Below, in pieces: positions 3,719 through 9,815 of a stretch of 64,000 nucleotides of DNA. The position numbers and the translations under genes are program-made. Source of the DNA: Escherichia coli. GTDB lineage: Bacteria > Pseudomonadota > Gammaproteobacteria > Enterobacterales > Enterobacteriaceae. Location: assembly GCF_003018255.1 (NCBI RefSeq), contig NZ_CP027440.1; one strand, given 5' to 3'. Numbering within the stretch: the stretch's first letter is position 1; each line of letters starts with the position of its first letter. The notes under the pieces were generated by a model. That model saw nothing but the letters and a program-made list of their open reading frames with translations. It had not been told where the DNA came from and did not search any database.

Positions 3719-6700
3719 TCATGACTGATTAAAGCGAAACAGCGGTAACAGGAAACGTTGCGACTGTTCAACGATAGCCTCCATTGTCTCTGGTGTTAAT
3801 TGCCGCCAGAGCCGTTGATACCAGATATCATCACCTTCGCCACGCACCATCATGTTGCCTTCGTAAGCCTGAAGGAATTTCGTACGGGCTTTTTGTAACG
3901 TGGAATCGTCATCCAGCATGGCATCGTTTTGCGCGTCATAACAGGTTTTTAGCCACGCGCCGCCACTTTCAGGTAACACCAGCAATGGCGCGGACATTCC
4001 TTCACGATACCCCTCAATCAGTTGTGAGAGGTAATGCAAAGCCTGTTCGGCTGCAAGCGGCGGAAAACGCCACTCGCCGTCTTTGCGTAGAAAAAGGCGA
4101 CTTTCACCATTACCACCGCTGGCACAGTAGACAAGGTGTTCCAGCCAAAGTTGCATTCCCTGCGCCACACTTAATAAAGAGGGACGCCAGCGCAACAGGC
4201 CATCCGGCTGCACCTGCGGCAACCAGCCAGTTATCTGCACACCGTTGCAGGCGAGATCAATTTCCATACTCTGCCCCGGCTGGCGACGTGCAATGACTCT
4301 GTCGGCAAGCTGCTGCATCTCCTGGCACTGTGTTTCCCAGAAAATTTCACCAAAAGCGCCATACGGTAAATCCCCTGCCGCCCGGAAGCGGCGGAATAAG
4401 CGATCGGCATCATCCTGCTCAACCAGTGCATTCAATAACTGCTGATTGATTTGATAACGGCTAAGCCCTTCCAGAATAAATGGCTCGGTGTCGGGGATTT
4501 CGCTGTCTTCAGTACGGAAGTTCACCTGCAAACGCATCTGGAAGAACGCCCGTACCGGATGTGCCCAGAATCGTTGTAGCGTTTCCAGCGGCACGGTTTC
4601 CGGTAAGGTAAACGGCAGCGGCTGAACAAATTCAGAATGTGCTTTACCAGCCTGGCTGGCCGCAGGTAGCCATTCACGAGCATAGCTTTGTCGTTCGCCT
4701 GGCTGGTAGTTTTGCGGATCAAACGGCATCCGGGTATGGAGGCAAGTAAGATGCGCTTTTACCCTTGCCTCGCTTTCATCACAGTTGAGCGCTTCATCGC
4801 CCGGTAGATAATGGCTTTGCCCGATGTAGTCGATCAGTTCCTGCACCAGTACCGACGGGAAACGTTCACTGTTATCCTGAATAGAACGCCCGATATAGCT
4901 GATATAGAGTTTTTGCTGCGCGGAAATTAACGCTTCCAGGAACAGATAGCGGTCGTCATCGCGACGGCTACGGTCGCCACGCTTCGGTTTCTGGCTCATC
5001 AGGTCAAAGCCCAATGGCGCAAGCTGGCGTGGATAAACGCCGTCGTTCATTCCCAGCAGGCAAACCACTTTGAATGGGATGGAACGCATTGGCATCAGAG
5101 TACAAATGTTAACCGGTCCGGCGAGAAAACGCTGGCTGATACGTTCCTGATCCAGGCGCTGTGCCAGTTCATCACGCAATAGTGACAGCGGCACCGCGTC
5201 GCCATACTGCGCACCTAAACCTTCGGCGATAATCGCCTGCCATTGTTGTTCGATCAGCGTCATAGCCGCTTCGGTTTCCGCATCCGGCAGGAAGAAGGCG
5301 TTGAGCATATCGCGACAAACCGGCAACCACTCTTCCAGCGGACGCTCCTGCGCCAGCCCGCGACGCCAGATGTTTAGCTGCATTAGCAGTGAAGCCAGAT
5401 GCCCCACCAGTTCTGCAATTAAGCCGCTCGATTCATCATAAGGTAGAACCGATTGCCACTCGCCCTGCGCGCTCTCCATCGCGTAGCCCAGCAACATACG
5501 CGTCAGGCCAAATCGCCAGGTGTGTTGTCCGGTGGCGGGGAGTTCCAGCTCGCGAACGTTGTCGTCATCTATCCCCCAACGAATGCCGGATTCGTTGACC
5601 CACTGGCGTAAATAACGCAGCCCTTCTTCGGTGATGTCAAACCGCGCCGCCAGCACCGGCACATCCAGCAGCGCCAGCACATCCTCTGACACAAAGCGAC
5701 TGTCAGGCAGTGATAACAGGCTGATAAACGCTTCCAATACCGGATGTGACTGCCGCGCCCGACGGTCGGAAATGGCGTAAGGCAGGTAACGATCCGCAGG
5801 TGCGCTACCAAACACAGCCTGAATAAACGGACTGTAGCTGTCGATGTCGGCCACCATCACGATGATGTCGCGCGGAGTCAGTGTCGGGTCTTCCTCCAGC
5901 ATCGCCAGCAGGCGATCGTGTAAAACTTCAACTTCACGCTGCGGGCTATGGCAAACGTGAAAGGTGATACTGCTATCCAGTGGATCAAGCGGGCGTTTGT
6001 TATCGCTACGGGAAAACTCTTCGATGTTTACACCAGCAACGGCGCGGTTTTCCAGTTCCAGAATGTCAGACTGAATGTTATGCAGCAGGTTATCTGGCGT
6101 AACATCGACAAAAGCGTCCAGCTCCTGGCTGCTCTCCAGATCAGAAAGGAGATAAATGTAGTCGCGCCCAAGCTTGCCCCATGAGGCCAGCAGCGGGTTG
6201 CCGACATCCTGTTCACCATCGCTGTTAAAGAGCTGCCCGGCATTTTCGCTGTCGCGAAATAGCGGTAATTCTCGATCTTCAAAACTGTGTCGGCGCTGGC
6301 GAGTCAGTAGTTTCGCCAGATAAGCAGGATCTTTAATGTCGCCCCAGTAATAACGGCAGGGGTTGGTAAACAGGAGATGGATTTCAATATGTTTACCCAG
6401 CGCCTGGAGTGCCTGGAGATAAACAGGCGGTAACGCGGAAATACCGCATATAAAGACGCGCGAAGGTAACCCCGGCGGGCAGGTCGTCGCGGACTCCAGC
6501 GTTTCGATAAAGCGCTGATAGAGATTGGCGCGGTGCCAGCGCGGTTGCCCGAGTTCATGGGTATATTCCACCAACGCCTTCCACAACGGCGCTTGCCAGG
6601 CCTGTGCTTCTCCCAGCCCTTCAACCAAATGTCCTATTTCCCACTGTGCCAGCCAGTCCGGACGATAGACCAGATACTGGTCAAACAGGTCCGCCGCTTT

Positions 6701-7087
6701 TGAAGAAAGCTGGAACAGTTTTCGCTTGTCGCTATCGTCAGTCAGATAATGCCGCAACAGGGTAAAGTCTTCGCGCTCCAACAGTTGCGGCAGCAGAGTC
6801 ATCAGTTTCCAGCTCATGCTCTGTTTGTTAAAGGCGCTCTCTTTGGGGATTTCCGGTAACACCCGGACGAACATATCCCAGATAAAGCTCGCTGGCAGCG
6901 GAAAATCAATGTTTGCCGCAATACCAAACTTTTGCGACAGGGTCATTTGCAGCCACTGCGCCATACCGGTACTTTGCACCAGAATCATTTCTGGTTCGAA
7001 AGGATCGTCCAGCCGTTCGCGTTCGACGATAAACTCCATCAACGCTTCCAGCACGTCCAGACGATTGGAATGGTAGACCCTTAACAT
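3719..7087 (-). CDS. recC: RecBCD subunit RecC
   Basis: 1122-aa ORF of RecC length, in the conserved recB-ptrA-recC arrangement. Confidence 0.93.
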   Translation of the reverse strand: MLRVYHSNRLDVLEALMEFIVERERLDDPFEPEMILVQSTGMAQWLQMTLSQKFGIAANIDFPLPASFIWDMFVRVLPEIPKESAFNKQSMSWKLMTLLPQLLEREDFTLLRHYLTDDSDKRKLFQLSSKAADLFDQYLVYRPDWLAQWEIGHLVEGLGEAQAWQAPLWKALVEYTHELGQPRWHRANLYQRFIETLESATTCPPGLPSRVFICGISALPPVYLQALQALGKHIEIHLLFTNPCRYYWGDIKDPAYLAKLLTRQRRHSFEDRELPLFRDSENAGQLFNSDGEQDVGNPLLASWGKLGRDYIYLLSDLESSQELDAFVDVTPDNLLHNIQSDILELENRAVAGVNIEEFSRSDNKRPLDPLDSSITFHVCHSPQREVEVLHDRLLAMLEEDPTLTPRDIIVMVADIDSYSPFIQAVFGSAPADRYLPYAISDRRARQSHPVLEAFISLLSLPDSRFVSEDVLALLDVPVLAARFDITEEGLRYLRQWVNESGIRWGIDDDNVRELELPATGQHTWRFGLTRMLLGYAMESAQGEWQSVLPYDESSGLIAELVGHLASLLMQLNIWRRGLAQERPLEEWLPVCRDMLNAFFLPDAETEAAMTLIEQQWQAIIAEGLGAQYGDAVPLSLLRDELAQRLDQERISQRFLAGPVNICTLMPMRSIPFKVVCLLGMNDGVYPRQLAPLGFDLMSQKPKRGDRSRRDDDRYLFLEALISAQQKLYISYIGRSIQDNSERFPSVLVQELIDYIGQSHYLPGDEALNCDESEARVKAHLTCLHTRMPFDPQNYQPGERQSYAREWLPAASQAGKAHSEFVQPLPFTLPETVPLETLQRFWAHPVRAFFQMRLQVNFRTEDSEIPDTEPFILEGLSRYQINQQLLNALVEQDDADRLFRRFRAAGDLPYGAFGEIFWETQCQEMQQLADRVIARRQPGQSMEIDLACNGVQITGWLPQVQPDGLLRWRPSLLSVAQGMQLWLEHLVYCASGGNGESRLFLRKDGEWRFPPLAAEQALHYLSQLIEGYREGMSAPLLVLPESGGAWLKTCYDAQNDAMLDDDSTLQKARTKFLQAYEGNMMVRGEGDDIWYQRLWRQLTPETMEAIVEQSQRFLLPLFRFNQS

Positions 7088-7099
7088 AGCGGCTCCTGA

Positions 7100-7423
7100 C
7101 TACTGACGATTCGGGCAATGCAGGCGGGTCATCTCGCCTTCTCTGCCCCCGGGTGAAACTAGCGTAACGCTGATGCTGACACATCCCGCCTGCGATGTCT
7201 GCATTCGGTTGACCTGCCAGTTAGCAGGTGGCGAAATCGCGCGCAGTTGCGTTTGCTGCCAGCCATGCCGCCAGAGCTGTTGGTACTGGTTTCTGCTGGC
7301 AAGACTGTTCATTAATGTTCGCTGGAAACCCGATAACGCAGTGACAATCATCACCATCAACACCATCGCCAACATTACCTCCGGCAGACTAAAGCCTTGT
7401 TGATTCCTCAGGGAAGCTGACAT
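7100..7423 (-). CDS. ppdC: Prepilin-like protein PpdC
   Basis: Internal start [17 protein letters not shown] gives 107 aa with a prepilin-type N-terminus; the longer 136-aa frame is taken as a spurious upstream extension. Confidence 0.75.
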
Positions 7424-7815
7424 AACGCCCTCTCTTTCAGCGGACAAAAATCGCTCCAGCCGCGTGGCGAAAAAACAATGTTTCCATCGATGACTTCGCC
7501 TGTTCGCCACAACGAAACGCCTTCATAACCAGCAATCAATAAGGCTTCATTATCTGCCAGTAAACGCAGACAAACCCGGGCACCGGTGGCAGCATACAGT
7601 AAGCACTGAACTGCGGGCAGCGTCTGCCAGGAGTGCATTTTTCCCCACTCCAGCGCCGACTGAACGATGGCCTGGCGGCGCAATGACTGACTTTCCATGC
7701 TCACGCGAGAAGCAAAACTGCGATCCTGCTGACTCATTCCTTGCAATAGCAAGCTACCCAAAATCAGCAGCATCAGGACCAGAGCCAGTGACGAAACACC
7801 CTTTTCGCGGTTCAC
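7408..7815 (-). CDS. ygdB: Small membrane-anchored protein YgdB of the ppd operon
   Basis: 135-aa ORF with a hydrophobic N-terminus; overlaps ppdC by 16 nt and ppdB by 4 nt. Confidence 0.75.
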
Positions 7816-8375
7816 AGGTTGGATCCTGTCACGCTATAGCTGGCATCCACCACGGTTTGCGGATCAGCCTTGCTGGCAGCGTGCATATTAACCGTCAACA
7901 CCGGCGAGAAGCCGCTGACATCCTGACGTACGACCTGAAAAGTGTCGATAATGATGGCATCCGGATTAGTGACTTTATCCCAGCCCTTACCTTCACAGGA
8001 TGTCGCACCGCGTAGCGTTTCCAGCACATGCTCCTTCAGACGAAATCCAATCTGGTCGGACTCTTTTACCGGTTCGCGATCCCAGATACCATTACTGTTC
8101 GCATCCCACTGCACAATGACACAGTCACCCTGTCCGACAATTTCCAGCCCTTCGCCCGTACAGCTGCCATGGCAATAACCCGCCCTCTGGAGATGCTTCG
8201 CGACGGTAAATACCCGCAGCCAGATTTCATCTTCCAGCGCCAGCTTACGGGTGTTCGTTAAACTTTCACGCTGTAACGCAGGCAGAAAGCGTGCAGCCCC
8301 CAGCAACAATACGCTACTGATCGCCATAGCAATCAACACTTCCAGCAGAGAAAAACCTTGCTCTTTTACAGGCAT
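7812..8375 (-). CDS. ppdB: Prepilin-like protein PpdB
   Basis: Internal start [19 protein letters not shown] gives 187 aa with a prepilin N-terminal motif; the 267-aa frame is an upstream extension. Confidence 0.75.
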
Positions 8376-8836
8376 CCTTCTGTTTCTCCTTGCTGACAAA
8401 GCCGGAGTCTTCCCCACGGCGAAACCACTAGCCACCACTCGCCCGTTGAGTTTTTGAAGCGAATATGCCCGGCCCATGCGGTATTGCGCAGGCCAAAGAA
8501 AGCAAGCGAAGGTGTCAGGTCGCTCATTTCGACTTCGGGCCAGCGCGGCACAAAGACCAATGGTGAACTGCCATGACAGGTATTCGCCCCAGCAACGGAA
8601 CTCACAAGGCACCATAACGTCCCCTCCCTGATAAGACTGATACTGTGGTCGCGGTTATGCCAGTTGGCATCTTCACGTAAATAGAGCAAATAGTCCCGCG
8701 CCTGGCTGGCGGTTTGCCAAAGCCGTTGCGACTGCTGCCAGTATTGCCAGCCATAAAGCCCACTTGCGCTTAGCATGACCAGAATCAGCATCGCGACCAG
8801 CGTTTCAATCAGCGTATAACCACGTTGTGTTTTCAT
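8366..8836 (-). CDS. ppdA: Prepilin-like protein PpdA
   Basis: 156 aa; N-terminus [16 protein letters not shown] is a type IV prepilin leader with the conserved Glu. Confidence 0.82.
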
Positions 8837-8971
8837 GCCGGCAGTATGGAGCGAGGAGAAAAAAAGACGAGGGCCAGTTTCTATTTCTTCGGCACATCTT
8901 CCGGACTATTTACGCCGTTGCAGGACGTTGCAAAATTTCGGGAAGGTGTCTCGAAGAATTTAACGGAGGGC

Positions 8972-8999
8972 AAAAAAAACCGACGCACACTGGCGTCGG
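8972..8999 (-). terminator. Rho-independent terminator downstream of thyA
   Basis: On the minus strand, a GC hairpin (CCGACGC / GCGTCGG) is followed by T8 (plus-strand A8 at 8972-8979). Confidence 0.6.
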
Positions 9000-9020
9000 C
9001 TCTGGCAGGATGTTTCGTAA

Positions 9021-9815
9021 TTAGATAGCCACCGGCGCTTTAATGCCCGGATGTGGATCGTATCCTTCAATCTCAAAGTCTTCGAAACGGTAGTCGAAGA
9101 TGGATTCGGGTTTACGTTTGATAATCAACTTCGGCAGCGGACGCGGTTCGCGGCTTAATTGCAGATGAGTTTGATCCATATGGTTGCTGTAGAGATGCGT
9201 GTCGCCACCGGTCCAGACAAAATCACCCACTTCCAGATCGCACTGCTGCGCCATCATATGCACCAGTAACGCGTAGCTGGCAATGTTGAACGGCAGGCCG
9301 AGGAAGACGTCACAGGAGCGCTGATAAAGCTGGCAAGAGAGTTTGCCGTCTGCCACATAGAACTGGAAGAATGCATGGCACGGTGCCAGCGCCATTTTAT
9401 CCAGTTCGCCTACGTTCCACGCTGAAACAATAATGCGGCGGGAATCCGGGTCGTTTTTCAGCTGGTTCAGTACAGTAGTGATCTGGTCAATATGACGACC
9501 ATCCGGCGTTGGCCAGGCGCGCCACTGTTTACCATACACTGGCCCGAGGTCGCCGTTTTCATCGGCCCATTCGTCCCAGATGGTGACATTGTTTTCGTGT
9601 AGATAAGCAATGTTAGTGTCGCCCTGCAGGAACCACAGCAGTTCGTGGATGATGGAACGCAGGTGGCAACGTTTAGTTGTCACCAGCGGGAATCCATCCT
9701 GCAGGTTAAAACGCATCTGATGACCAAAAATGGAAAGCGTTCCGGTTCCGGTACGGTCGTTTTTCTGTGTGCCTTCGTCGAGCACTTTTTGCATCAGTTC
9801 TAAATACTGTTTCAT
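9021..9815 (-). CDS. thyA: Thymidylate synthase
   Basis: 264 aa with the active-site region ...[11 protein letters not shown]... and the conserved C-terminus. Confidence 0.95.

What the first reader, a model, noticed from the sequence alone, without database searches (positions are those of the whole stretch)
7100..8836. Cryptic prepilin-like operon ppdA-ppdB-ygdB-ppdC packed directly upstream of recC
Four small genes with type IV prepilin leaders (G-F/Y-T/S-L-I/L-E) overlap each other by 4-16 nt and end 12 bp before recC, with no assembly ATPase, secretin or peptidase nearby. This looks like an orphan minor-pilin set whose partner machinery is elsewhere.
Basis: partly seen in the sequence, partly recalled or inferred. 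Interest (0 to 1): 0.4.

Follow-up and report, generated by a model that had tools for sequence, protein, structure and literature searches.

The report
Known E. coli minor-pilin operon
These four small overlapping genes are the already-described E. coli ppdA-ppdB-ygdB-ppdC operon, which makes the starter/tip subunits of a normally silent type IV pilus whose motor, channel and peptidase are encoded elsewhere, so the finding is correct but ordinary.

Summary
On the minus strand lie ppdA (8366-8836), ppdB (7812-8375), ygdB (7408-7815) and ppdC (7100-7423). They overlap by 10, 4 and 16 nt and end 12 nt before recC. One correction: YgdB has a pilin-type leader but no Glu+5 and fails the N-methylation model, like GspK/PilX.

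The locus is 100% identical to an E. coli chromosome and present in 5425 of 5426 complete genomes. A scan anchored on recC found the same thyA-ppdA-ppdB-ygdB-ppdC-recC order in 69 of 69 informative Enterobacteriaceae species. ORFs of conserved length were recovered in all 69, and dN/dS was 0.07-0.25.

The literature already identifies these genes as the core minor pilins (FimU/PilW/PilX/PilV equivalents) of the PpdD type IVa pilus. They are induced by Sxy/CRP-S and work with ppdD-hofBC, hofMNOPQ and gspO.

Three promoter-level details came up in passing and I did not find them reported:
- ppdA has no Shine-Dalgarno in any of 70 loci, but a conserved CAYACT placed as a -10 box for a leaderless mRNA.
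- Two conserved CytR-type TGCAACG half-sites lie beside the CRP-S site.
- A block inside ppdC is conserved even at synonymous sites, possibly an internal recC promoter.

The parts
8366..8836 (-). ppdA: 156-aa minor pilin, FimU/GspH type, leader MKTQRG|YTLIE
   Evidence: ORF and start. RefSeq CDS. Pfam N_methyl E 3e-7 and NCBIfam PRK10506 equivalog E 2e-74. AF2 model pLDDT 90.2 matches EpsH/GspH, FimU and XcpH at probability 0.99-1.00, TM 0.46-0.65.
7812..8375 (-). ppdB: 187-aa minor pilin, PilW/GspJ position, leader MPVKEQG|FSLLE, preceded by the SD AAGGAG
   Evidence: N_methyl E 6.5e-9 and PRK10557 E 3.5e-99. Best profile match among K-12 Gsp proteins is GspJ at 91.7%, N-terminal region only. 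Weak PDB sequence hit to Thermus TTHA1219, E 0.065.
7408..7815 (-). ygdB: 135-aa Glu5-less pilin-like protein (PilX/GspK position), GTG start in a GTGA overlap with the ppdB stop; four invariant Cys
7100..7423 (-). ppdC: 107-aa minor pilin, PilV/GspI type, leader ..NQQG|FSLPE
   Evidence: PF12528 T2SSppdC E 8.5e-31, N_methyl E 8e-7, PRK10332 E 7e-65. hhalign to K-12 GspI 91.5% over residues 5-100.
3719..7087 (-). recC (exonuclease V gamma subunit): co-oriented, 12 nt downstream of ppdC with its own SD and no intervening terminator
   Evidence: The ppdC-to-recC gap is 27 nt or less in 63 of 69 species.
8972..9000 (-). thyA intrinsic terminator (GCCGACGC-loop-GCGTCGG followed by T8), which insulates the ppdA promoter from thyA
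   Evidence: Sequence. Stem and T-run conserved with compensatory changes across 62 species.
8937..8958 (-). Candidate CRP-S (Sxy-dependent CRP) site, core TTCGA-GACACC-TTCCC at 8955-8940
   Evidence: Two mismatches to the published E. coli CRP-S motif TGCGA-N6-TTCCA (PMC6728893). The footprint shows two conserved pentamers around a variable 6-bp spacer, and several genera carry TGCGA. Pattern count alone is not significant. Assignment inferred.
8916..8932 (-). Two direct TGCAACG repeats 10 bp apart (8932-8926 and 8922-8916). The proximal CTGCAA may be the -35 hexamer; both match the CytR udp half-site
   Evidence: Among the most conserved positions of the intergenic region. udpO half-site ATTTATGCAACGCA (PMC5934615). 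The udp promoter architecture was reproduced. ppdD has CTGCAACG at the same offset from its CRP-S centre. Function inferred.
8837..8848 (-). Conserved CATACT followed by GCCGGC directly before the ppdA ATG, in place of a Shine-Dalgarno; geometry of a -10 box for a leaderless transcript
   Evidence: SD duplex of -6 kcal/mol or stronger in 0 of 70 ppdA starts, against 74-94% for ppdB, ppdC and recC. A-11 in 62/70, A-9 in 59/70, T-7 in 60/70. No conserved RNA structure and no conserved upstream ORF. Function inferred.
7171..7187 (-). Block GGGATGTGTCAGCATCA inside ppdC, conserved even at synonymous positions; contains the extended -10-like TGT-CAGCAT (7181-7173), a candidate internal recC promoter
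   Evidence: Third-codon-position information 1.13 bits here against 0.26-0.89 elsewhere in ppdC. ppdC has lower dS than the other three genes. Function inferred.

Best explanation
This is the E. coli core minor-pilin operon ppdA-ppdB-ygdB-ppdC.

Proposed mechanism:
1. The four products are inner-membrane-anchored pilin-like proteins. Three of them (PpdA, PpdB, PpdC) carry the canonical prepilin leader and Glu+5, and are cleaved by a prepilin peptidase (GspO or PppA).
2. Together with the Glu5-less YgdB they assemble into a small complex on the HofB/HofC/HofMNOP platform.
3. That complex primes polymerisation of the major pilin PpdD and ends up at the tip of the type IVa pilus, which exits through the HofQ secretin.

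Correspondence to other systems: PpdA = FimU/GspH, PpdB = PilW/GspJ, YgdB = PilX/GspK (the cap subunit, lacking Glu5), PpdC = PilV/GspI.

Regulation and organisation: the operon is silent in laboratory culture and is switched on by cAMP-CRP together with Sxy (TfoX) through a weak CRP-S site upstream of ppdA, as part of the competence/DNA-uptake regulon. The tight 4-16 nt overlaps give translational coupling and hence fixed stoichiometry. The operon runs without a terminator into recC, an arrangement conserved throughout Enterobacteriaceae and reported also in Pasteurellaceae (comNOPQ-recC).

What is shown here: gene structure, family and fold assignments, conservation, selection, and the promoter footprint. 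What is taken from the literature: priming function, Sxy induction and the partner genes. What is inferred: the exact promoter, co-transcription with recC, and the order of subunits in the complex.
For: Gene models and junctions.

Family assignments: N_methyl in PpdA, PpdB and PpdC, and equivalog-level NCBIfam hits for all four.

Glu+5 pattern: present in 68, 67 and 66 of 69 PpdA, PpdB and PpdC orthologs and in 0 of 69 YgdB orthologs. K-12 GspK likewise reads G|VALLIV, and PilX and GspK are documented to lack Glu5 (PMC7541494).

Published correspondence: FimU=ppdA, PilV=ppdC, PilW=ppdB, PilX=ygdB (PMC7248040 Table 1).

Function: deleting these genes gives strong pilus-assembly defects in EHEC (PMC7248040 citing Luna Rico 2019). 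PpdAB-YgdB-PpdC can prime PulG assembly in a pulHIJK mutant (PMC5131608 citing Cisneros 2012). hofBC + hofMNOPQ + ppdAB-ygdB-ppdC + gspO suffice for PpdD pili (10.1101/856302).

Regulation: the operon is Sxy-regulated and ppdA is the most strongly induced gene (PMC12616744 citing Sinha 2009 and Jaskolska & Gerdes 2015). A CRP-S-type footprint lies upstream of ppdA. Sxy-induced DNA uptake in E. coli depends on hofQ (PMC3330819).

Partner loci located in K-12.

Maintenance by selection: 5425 of 5426 E. coli genomes; 69 of 69 species with all four ORFs recovered at near-constant lengths in the same order; dN/dS 0.07-0.25.
Against: - No experiment here shows processing, assembly or expression; all functional statements rest on cited papers, two of which (Sinha 2009, Luna Rico 2019) could not be read directly.
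- Sequence similarity to GspH/I/J/K is confined to the N-terminal helix, except for PpdC-GspI. With the helix removed no profile match is significant, and all Gsp NCBIfam scores are below cut-off.
- The E. coli CRP-S candidate has T instead of the contact base G5 and is not significant by pattern count.
- Natural conditions that induce the operon in E. coli are unknown (PMC3330819).
Confidence: 0.9

Rival explanations
1. The four proteins are spare minor pseudopilins of the Gsp type II secretion system rather than type IV pilus subunits.
For: They can prime assembly of the Klebsiella T2SS pseudopilin PulG (PMC5131608). Pfam names the PpdC family 'Type II secretion prepilin peptidase dependent protein C'. 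The peptidase used in the reconstitution is gspO.
Against: The K-12 gsp operon already encodes its own gspH-I-J-K. All four proteins score far below the GspH/I/J/K NCBIfam cut-offs. They are co-regulated by Sxy with ppdD and hof rather than with gsp. YgdB lacks GspK's large insertion (135 aa against 327 aa).
Confidence: 0.04
2. The operon is a decaying evolutionary relic: cryptic, never used, and kept only because it is wedged between thyA and recC.
For: No expression under standard laboratory conditions, and no PpdD pilin in any of 72 ECOR strains (PMC3330819). The proteins diverge fast: 28-93% identity against 85-100% for ThyA.
Against: All four ORFs were recovered at near-constant lengths in 69 of 69 species, and the overlaps are conserved. 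dN/dS is 0.07-0.25, well below 1. Four Cys and several Trp of YgdB are invariant. Leader peptides, Glu+5 and promoter elements are conserved. The locus is present in 5425 of 5426 E. coli genomes. The genes are functional in reconstitution.
Confidence: 0.02
3. The main job of the set is DNA capture for competence, not filament priming. PpdA (= ComN) would be the DNA receptor at the pilus tip, and the linkage to recC would reflect a shared role in handling incoming DNA.
For: The Pasteurellaceae orthologs comNOPQ are each required for DNA uptake, and ComN/PpdA is predicted to bind DNA, sharing electropositive residues with E. coli PpdA (PMC12616744). The operon belongs to the Sxy competence regulon. 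Sxy-induced DNA uptake in E. coli needs hofQ. Linkage to recC holds in 69 of 69 species.
Against: DNA binding by E. coli PpdA is only modelled, not measured. This reading does not exclude priming, since tip complexes commonly do both (PMC7248040). In EHEC the same pilus acts in adhesion and twitching. recC must be expressed constitutively, and a conserved block inside ppdC suggests it has its own promoter, so the linkage need not be regulatory.
Confidence: 0.35

Closest known systems
Core minor pilins of type IVa pili (P. aeruginosa FimU-PilV-PilW-PilX; Neisseria PilH-I-J-K)
   Same: Four clustered genes. Three have canonical prepilin leaders with Glu+5 and one (PilX/PilK = YgdB) lacks Glu5. 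PpdA's predicted fold matches the FimU crystal structure. The role in priming pilus assembly is documented for the E. coli set.
   Different: Gene order is A(FimU)-B(PilW)-YgdB(PilX)-C(PilV). There is no PilY1 adhesin and no PilE equivalent (PMC7248040 Table 1). The operon is unlinked from all the machinery and fused to recC. The proteins are small and very divergent in sequence.
Type II secretion minor pseudopilins GspH-GspI-GspJ-GspK
   Different: Below all GspH/I/J/K family cut-offs. E. coli has a separate gspHIJK inside the gsp operon. YgdB, at 135 aa, lacks the large domain that makes GspK 327 aa. Regulation is by Sxy/CRP-S rather than with gsp.
Haemophilus influenzae comNOPQ (HI0938-0941)
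   Same: Treated as orthologous. It has four similar-sized prepilin-peptidase-dependent genes directly upstream of recC and in the same orientation, belongs to the CRP-S/Sxy regulon, and is required for DNA uptake (PMC1635313; PMC12616744).
   Different: BLAST does not connect the two sets. H. influenzae is naturally competent and has no CytR (PMC3739930), while E. coli shows only weak Sxy-forced uptake. I did not retrieve Pasteurellaceae loci myself.
Vibrio cholerae minor-pilin cluster VC0857-VC0861
   Same: Competence-pilus minor pilins induced by TfoX (Sxy).
   Different: In V. cholerae expression also needs CytR, by an undetermined mechanism (PMC4581735). I found no report of CytR involvement for E. 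coli ppdA, although CytR-type half-sites are present. Linkage to recC in Vibrio was not examined here.

Membership tests
Type IV pilin-like proteins (class III signal peptide; Pfam PF07963 / TIGR02532) | Short basic leader ending in Gly(-1), followed by a ~20-residue hydrophobic helix | tested here: met
   All four proteins: MKTQRG|Y.., MPVKEQG|F.., MNREKG|V....NQQG|F... Gly-1 is present in 69 of 69 orthologs of each.
Type IV pilin-like proteins (class III signal peptide; Pfam PF07963 / TIGR02532) | Match to the N-terminal cleavage/methylation motif model above its curated cut-off, including Glu at +5 | tested here: met
   This row covers PpdA, PpdB and PpdC only. PF07963 scores are 30.1, 35.4 and 28.8 bits against a cut-off of 21.2; TIGR02532 is also above cut-off. 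Glu+5 is present in 66-68 of 69 orthologs.
Type IV pilin-like proteins (class III signal peptide; Pfam PF07963 / TIGR02532) | Same motif model and Glu+5, tested for YgdB | tested here: not met
   No PF07963 or TIGR02532 hit; only DUF2509. Glu+5 is present in 0 of 69 orthologs. This is the known exception shared by GspK and PilX (PMC7541494; K-12 GspK leader).
Type IV pilin-like proteins (class III signal peptide; Pfam PF07963 / TIGR02532) | Pilin 'lollipop' fold: a long N-terminal helix packed on an antiparallel beta-sheet | tested here: met
   PpdA model pLDDT 90.2, helix 9-60 plus sheet. YgdB model pLDDT 91.4, helix 3-60 plus five strands. Best structural neighbours are pilins or pseudopilins. 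PpdB and PpdC were not modelled.
Type IV pilin-like proteins (class III signal peptide; Pfam PF07963 / TIGR02532) | Cleavage and N-methylation by a prepilin peptidase | not testable with these tools
   gspO is present in K-12 and is used in the reconstitution. Processing of the four proteins was not examined here.
T4aP core minor-pilin set (FimU/PilV/PilW/PilX = GspH/I/J/K equivalents) | Four pilin-like genes clustered in one operon, exactly one of them lacking Glu5 | tested here: met
   Conserved in 69 of 69 species.
T4aP core minor-pilin set (FimU/PilV/PilW/PilX = GspH/I/J/K equivalents) | One-to-one structural correspondence of each member to H, I, J and K | tested here: inconclusive
T4aP core minor-pilin set (FimU/PilV/PilW/PilX = GspH/I/J/K equivalents) | Required for, and able to prime, filament assembly | not testable with these tools
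   Literature only: PMC7248040, PMC5131608, 10.1101/856302.
Gsp type II secretion minor pseudopilins (NCBIfam TIGR01708 / 01707 / 01711 / NF037980) | Score above the curated equivalog cut-off, and location within a gsp operon | tested here: not met
   GspH 18.2 bits against 80, GspJ 20.4 against 64.9, GspK 12.8 against 130, and GspI 16.5 bits against 44.4 (that GspI hit was for PpdB; PpdC had none). The locus lies between thyA and recC, and K-12 has a separate gspHIJK.
Sxy/CRP-S (competence) regulon | A CRP-S site (E. coli motif TGCGA-N6-TTCCA) in the promoter region | tested here: inconclusive
   The best candidate, TTCGAGACACCTTCCC (8955-8940), has two mismatches, including G5, and is not significant by count. 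Its two pentamers are conserved around a variable spacer in 62 species, and several genera have TGCGA. The experimentally defined site (Sinha 2009) could not be read.
Sxy/CRP-S (competence) regulon | Transcription induced by Sxy in a CRP- and cAMP-dependent way | not testable with these tools
   Reported for this operon, with ppdA the most strongly induced gene (PMC12616744).
CytR regulon (considered, not claimed) | CytR half-sites (TGCAA core) in the promoter | tested here: met
   Two TGCAACG at 8932-8926 and 8922-8916, identical to the core of the udp half-site ATTTATGCAACGCA (PMC5934615). Conserved across genera.
CytR regulon (considered, not claimed) | Operator flanked by two CRP sites about 52-53 bp apart | tested here: inconclusive
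   The udp control shows 52 bp. At ppdA the multi-species consensus has TTCGA-N6-TCGTA 52 bp downstream of the CRP-S. The E. coli version (CGGAAGATGTGCCGAA, 8903-8888) is degenerate, and conservation there is weak.
CytR regulon (considered, not claimed) | CytR- and cytidine-dependent expression | not testable with these tools
   No report found for E. coli ppdA. The V. cholerae ortholog cluster is CytR-dependent.

The most novel reading that the evidence does not exclude
The ppdA promoter is more than a plain Sxy/CRP-S promoter. In this reading, the two conserved CytR-type TGCAACG half-sites directly downstream of the weak CRP-S site let CytR bind cooperatively with CRP. That would tie minor-pilin expression to nucleoside availability in Enterobacteriaceae, and it would supply the direct mechanism that is still missing for the CytR + TfoX dependence of the orthologous V. 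cholerae pilin operons.

In addition, ppdA, which has no Shine-Dalgarno in any of 70 loci, may be translated from a leaderless mRNA started by the conserved CAYACT box 6 nt upstream of its ATG.
Probability: 0.25. Interest if true: 0.45.

Novelty: already known. Interest (0 to 1): 0.12.

Why it matters
The operon itself is textbook-level for people who work on type IV pili and on the Sxy regulon, so confirming it adds no new biology. It matters mainly as a correct call by the first-stage reader.

Three by-products could be useful to specialists:
- **Regulatory inputs.** The footprint of the ppdA promoter across about 60 genera pins down which bases matter: the CRP-S pentamers, the two TGCAACG repeats, and a CAYACT box in place of a ribosome-binding site. 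It points to testable inputs (CytR, leaderless initiation) for a regulon whose natural inducing conditions in E. coli are still unknown.
- **recC expression.** The block inside ppdC that is conserved at synonymous sites offers an explanation for how recC stays constitutively expressed behind a silent operon.
- **YgdB.** A confident structural model is now available for YgdB, the PilX/GspK-position subunit. A 2019 review noted that no structure existed for that position in a type IVa system.

Tried and rejected
- A pattern search for the CRP-S motif gave 69 matches in the window against 73 expected, so pattern alone cannot identify the site. Only the cross-species footprint was informative.
- The consensus promoter/terminator scan found nothing useful on the minus strand. 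Its three terminator-like hits are at chance level and lie in coding sequence.
- PDB sequence searches found nothing for PpdA, YgdB or PpdC, and only E 0.065 for PpdB.
- Profile comparison of the globular domains alone against GspG/H/I/J/K and PpdD found nothing significant.
- There is no conserved RNA secondary structure around the ppdA start: the alifold consensus is empty and z is about 0.
- Translational coupling of ppdA to an upstream mini-ORF is not conserved: 29 of 70 loci, heterogeneous, and absent in E. coli.
- No Rfam family matches in 6900-9200.
- The idea that both TGCAAC repeats must be CytR sites was weakened. ppdD has CTGCAA, and dprA has TTGCAA one base further upstream, at nearly the same offset from their CRP-S sites, so the proximal repeat may simply be a -35 hexamer. 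sxy, comM and hofM have no such motif.
- Three papers could not be read: Sinha 2009 and Luna Rico 2019 are not held, and Sernova & Gelfand 2012 was blocked by the paper cap. Term counts show its main text has no 'prepilin', 'ygdB' or 'ppdB', and it is not among papers containing 'ppdA'.
- The assumption that the window equals strain JNE23-011 throughout was wrong. It is identical up to 20,971, then has a 1-bp indel and 99.6% identity. Annotation-based coordinates beyond that point shift by one base.
Full report
**1. What is there**

Listing ORFs and checking start codons shows four consecutive minus-strand genes:

| Gene | Coordinates | Length | Start |
|---|---|---|---|
| ppdA | 8366-8836 | 156 aa | ATG |
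| ppdB | 7812-8375 | 187 aa | ATG, preceded by AAGGAG |
| ygdB | 7408-7815 | 135 aa | GTG |
| ppdC | 7100-7423 | 107 aa | ATG |

Successive genes overlap by 10 nt (ATGCCTGTAA), 4 nt (GTGA) and 16 nt. The ppdC stop is followed by 12 nt (TCAGGAGCCGCT, which carries recC's Shine-Dalgarno) and then the recC ATG at 7087. thyA ends at 9021 and is followed by a clean intrinsic terminator at 9000-8972.

The 2.1-kb stretch is 100% identical to E. coli JNE23-011. It is found at 80% coverage or more in 5425 of 5426 complete E. coli genomes, at 95-100% identity. RefSeq annotates exactly these four CDS. The window is collinear with that strain: identical to 20,971, then a 1-bp indel, then 99.6% identity. 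The annotation of all 64 kb contains no pilus or secretion ATPase, secretin, platform protein or prepilin peptidase.

**2. Correction to the observation**

Three proteins have canonical prepilin leaders: PpdA G|YTLIE, PpdB G|FSLLE and PpdC G|FSLPE. All three pass Pfam N_methyl and TIGR02532.

YgdB (MNREKG|[11 protein letters not shown]...) has Gly-1 and the hydrophobic helix but lacks Phe/Tyr+1 and Glu+5. It matches only DUF2509. This is not a quirk of E. coli. In 69 other species Glu+5 is present in 68, 67 and 66 of the PpdA, PpdB and PpdC orthologs and in none of the YgdB orthologs. Lack of Glu5 is the hallmark of the cap subunits GspK and PilX (PMC7541494), and K-12 GspK itself reads MNNEQRG|VALLIV.

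**3. Independent comparative test**

I anchored a plain-DNA scan of one genome per species on the recC N-terminus rather than on the pilins. That keeps the test unbiased as to whether pilin genes lie upstream.

- All 120 hits were Enterobacteriaceae.
- All 69 loci with at least 2.3 kb upstream of recC had thyA-ppdA-ppdB-ygdB-ppdC-recC in that order.
- Junctions are conserved. The 4-nt ppdB/ygdB overlap is present in 64 of 69. The 16- or 19-nt ygdB/ppdC overlap is present in 62 of 69. The ppdC-recC gap is 27 nt or less in 63 of 69.
- The pilins are 28-93% identical to the window proteins, while ThyA is 85-100% identical.
- All four ORFs were recovered at near-constant lengths in every locus. 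dN/dS is 0.07-0.22 against the closest relative and about 0.25 more widely, compared with about 0.02 for thyA.

The genes evolve fast but are clearly maintained by selection, so they are 'cryptic' only in being unexpressed in the laboratory.

**4. Structure**

With ortholog alignments, AlphaFold2 gave confident models: YgdB at pLDDT 91.4 and PpdA at 90.2.

- PpdA's best PDB matches are the minor pseudopilin EpsH (GspH), the minor pilin FimU and XcpH, at probability 0.99-1.00 and TM 0.46-0.65.

Profile-sequence comparison with K-12 GspG/H/I/J/K gave best-in-row hits PpdB-GspJ and PpdC-GspI, the latter over residues 5-100. Otherwise similarity is limited to the N-terminal helix and vanishes when the helix is removed. 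All Gsp family scores are below cut-off. The four proteins therefore work like, but are not members of, the Gsp minor pseudopilin families. The gsp operon has its own H-I-J-K.

**5. What the literature already says**

- A review table equates FimU=ppdA, PilV=ppdC, PilW=ppdB and PilX=ygdB (=GspH, I, J, K). It states that deleting these genes causes strong pilus-assembly defects in EHEC (PMC7248040).
- A plasmid with hofBC, hofMNOPQ, ppdAB-ygdB-ppdC and gspO assembles PpdD pili (10.1101/856302).
- Cameron & Redfield (PMC1635313) noted in 2006 that four prepilin-peptidase-dependent genes sit next to recC in both Enterobacteriaceae and Pasteurellaceae. They treated them as orthologs of the H. influenzae competence genes now called comNOPQ.
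- A 2025 paper repeats this. It states that the E. coli operon is Sxy-regulated with ppdA the most induced gene, and proposes ComN/PpdA as a DNA receptor (PMC12616744).
- Sxy expression gives hofQ-dependent DNA uptake in E. coli (PMC3330819).

I located the partner loci in K-12: ppdD-hofB-hofC, hofMNOPQ and gspO.

**6. How it most likely works**

- *Shown in the cited papers.* The four proteins are the core minor pilins that prime PpdD polymerisation on the Hof machinery after processing by a prepilin peptidase.
- *Inferred from analogy with GspHIJK and PilVWX.* PpdC(I)-PpdB(J)-YgdB(K) form the tip, with the Glu5-less YgdB on top and PpdA(H) linking to PpdD.
- *Inferred from sequence.* The overlaps couple translation of ppdB, ygdB and ppdC. 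Strong SDs precede ppdB and ppdC, and ygdB starts in a GTGA overlap. Transcription can read through into recC, because no terminator lies in the 12-nt gap.

**7. Promoter anatomy (new here, partly unresolved)**

Aligning 62 thyA-ppdA intergenic regions, most of them 183-185 nt, gives the following footprint.

(a) The thyA terminator is conserved, with compensatory stem changes.

(b) There are two conserved pentamers around a variable 6-bp spacer, T(G/T)CGA-N6-TTCC(A/C). In the window this is TTCGAGACACCTTCCC at 8955-8940. It fits the asymmetric E. coli CRP-S motif TGCGA-N6-TTCCA (PMC6728893), and several genera carry TGCGA.

(c) Directly downstream are two TGCAACG repeats 10 bp apart (8932-8926 and 8922-8916).

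(d) A weaker CRP-like TTCGA-N6-TCGTA lies 52 bp downstream of (b) in the consensus. It is degenerate in E. coli (8903-8888).

(e) CCAYACTG lies immediately before the ATG.

*On (c).* TGCAACG is the core of the CytR half-site used in binding studies (udpO ATTTATGCAACGCA; PMC5934615). My control on the K-12 udp promoter reproduced the classical CRP-52 bp-CRP arrangement with TGCAACG in between. In V. cholerae the orthologous minor-pilin cluster, pilA and pilM require both CytR and TfoX, by a mechanism described as undetermined (PMC4581735). No paper in the searchable library links CytR with ppdA, ppdB, ygdB or prepilins.

Against a simple CytR reading, ppdD has CTGCAACG at exactly the same offset (25.5 bp) from its CRP-S centre. 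dprA has TTGCAA with its TGCAA core at 24.5 bp, one base nearer its CRP-S centre. sxy, comM and hofM have nothing comparable. The proximal repeat may therefore just be the -35 hexamer of a class-I CRP-S promoter, which leaves only the distal repeat unexplained.

*On (e).* None of 70 ppdA starts has a Shine-Dalgarno. The median anti-SD duplex is +0.3 kcal/mol, against -7.3, -8.4 and -6.6 for ppdB, ppdC and recC. The hexamer at -12..-7 from the A of the ATG is CAYACT-like, with A-11, A-9 and T-7 each conserved in 59-62 of 70 loci. It is followed by a GC-rich 6-mer. This is the geometry of a -10 box for a leaderless mRNA.

There is no conserved RNA structure, no conserved upstream ORF and no Rfam hit. 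However, a start at 8836 would put the CRP-S centre at -111.5, which is awkward. A start near 8888 fits class-I activation but has no convincing -10. I cannot resolve this without transcript mapping.

**8. recC**

Inside ppdC the block GGGATGTGTCAGCATCA (7187-7171) is conserved across genera even at third codon positions: 1.13 bits there against 0.26-0.89 elsewhere. ppdC also shows lower synonymous divergence than the other three genes. The block contains TGT-CAGCAT, an extended -10-like element 86 nt upstream of the recC ATG. I propose it as a candidate internal recC promoter, which would let recC be expressed while the pilin genes are silent. This is inference only.

**9. Verdict**

- Novelty: already known. 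Interest is low.
- The most novel reading not excluded is CytR input and/or leaderless initiation at the ppdA promoter.

Noticed in passing
window 8837-8848 (minus strand), directly upstream of the ppdA ATG at 8836: ppdA has no Shine-Dalgarno in 0 of 70 Enterobacteriaceae loci. Instead it has a conserved CAYACT (CATACT here) at -12..-7 from the A of the ATG, followed by a GC-rich hexamer. That is the geometry of a -10 box for a leaderless mRNA. No conserved RNA structure or upstream ORF explains it.
   Followed up: partly
window 8916-8932 (minus strand): Two direct TGCAACG repeats 10 bp apart lie immediately downstream of the CRP-S candidate and are among the most conserved bases of the intergenic region. 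They are identical to the core of the CytR udp half-site. I found no report linking CytR to this operon in E. coli, whereas the V. cholerae counterpart is CytR-dependent.
   Followed up: partly
L123 3655-3694 (K-12 ppdD promoter, minus strand); also L127 (dprA/smf) and L128 (ybaV/comEA) promoters: The ppdD promoter has a CRP-S core, TTCGTAACGCCTCGCA, and a CTGCAACG starting 25.5 bp downstream of its centre, the same offset as the proximal repeat at ppdA. dprA has TTGCAA, with its TGCAA core at 24.5 bp. comEA has GTTGCA next to a TCGCA half-site. sxy, comM and hofM have none.
   Followed up: partly
window 7171-7187 (minus strand), inside ppdC: GGGATGTGTCAGCATCA is conserved across genera even at synonymous third positions. 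It contains an extended -10-like TGT-CAGCAT 86 nt upstream of the recC start, making it a candidate internal recC promoter.
   Followed up: partly
window 8888-8903 (minus strand): In the multi-species consensus a second CRP-like site (TTCGA-N6-TCGTA) lies 52 bp downstream of the CRP-S site, which is the spacing typical of CytR-controlled promoters. The E. coli version (CGGAAGATGTGCCGAA) is degenerate.
   Followed up: partly
window about 31737-32052, between yqeG and tRNA-Gly(CCC) at 32053-32126: The roughly 11.7-kb ETT2 type III secretion island remnant that K-12 carries between yqeG and glyU (yqeH ... ygeQ, with IS2) is absent from this window. yqeG is followed by the tRNA after about 316 bp.
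   Followed up: yes
L079 about 1973-2491 (Escherichia sp. E1V33): The ppdA ORF is longer (173 codons), and its similarity to E. coli PpdA stops early. The single 62-nt ppdA/ppdB overlap seen may belong to this locus, but I did not check. It could be a frameshifted or otherwise altered 3' end.
   Followed up: no
window 20972: The window is identical to E. coli JNE23-011 up to 20,971, then differs by a 1-bp indel in the aas-galR intergenic region, and is only 99.6% identical in the second half. The source is therefore a close relative rather than that strain.
   Followed up: yes
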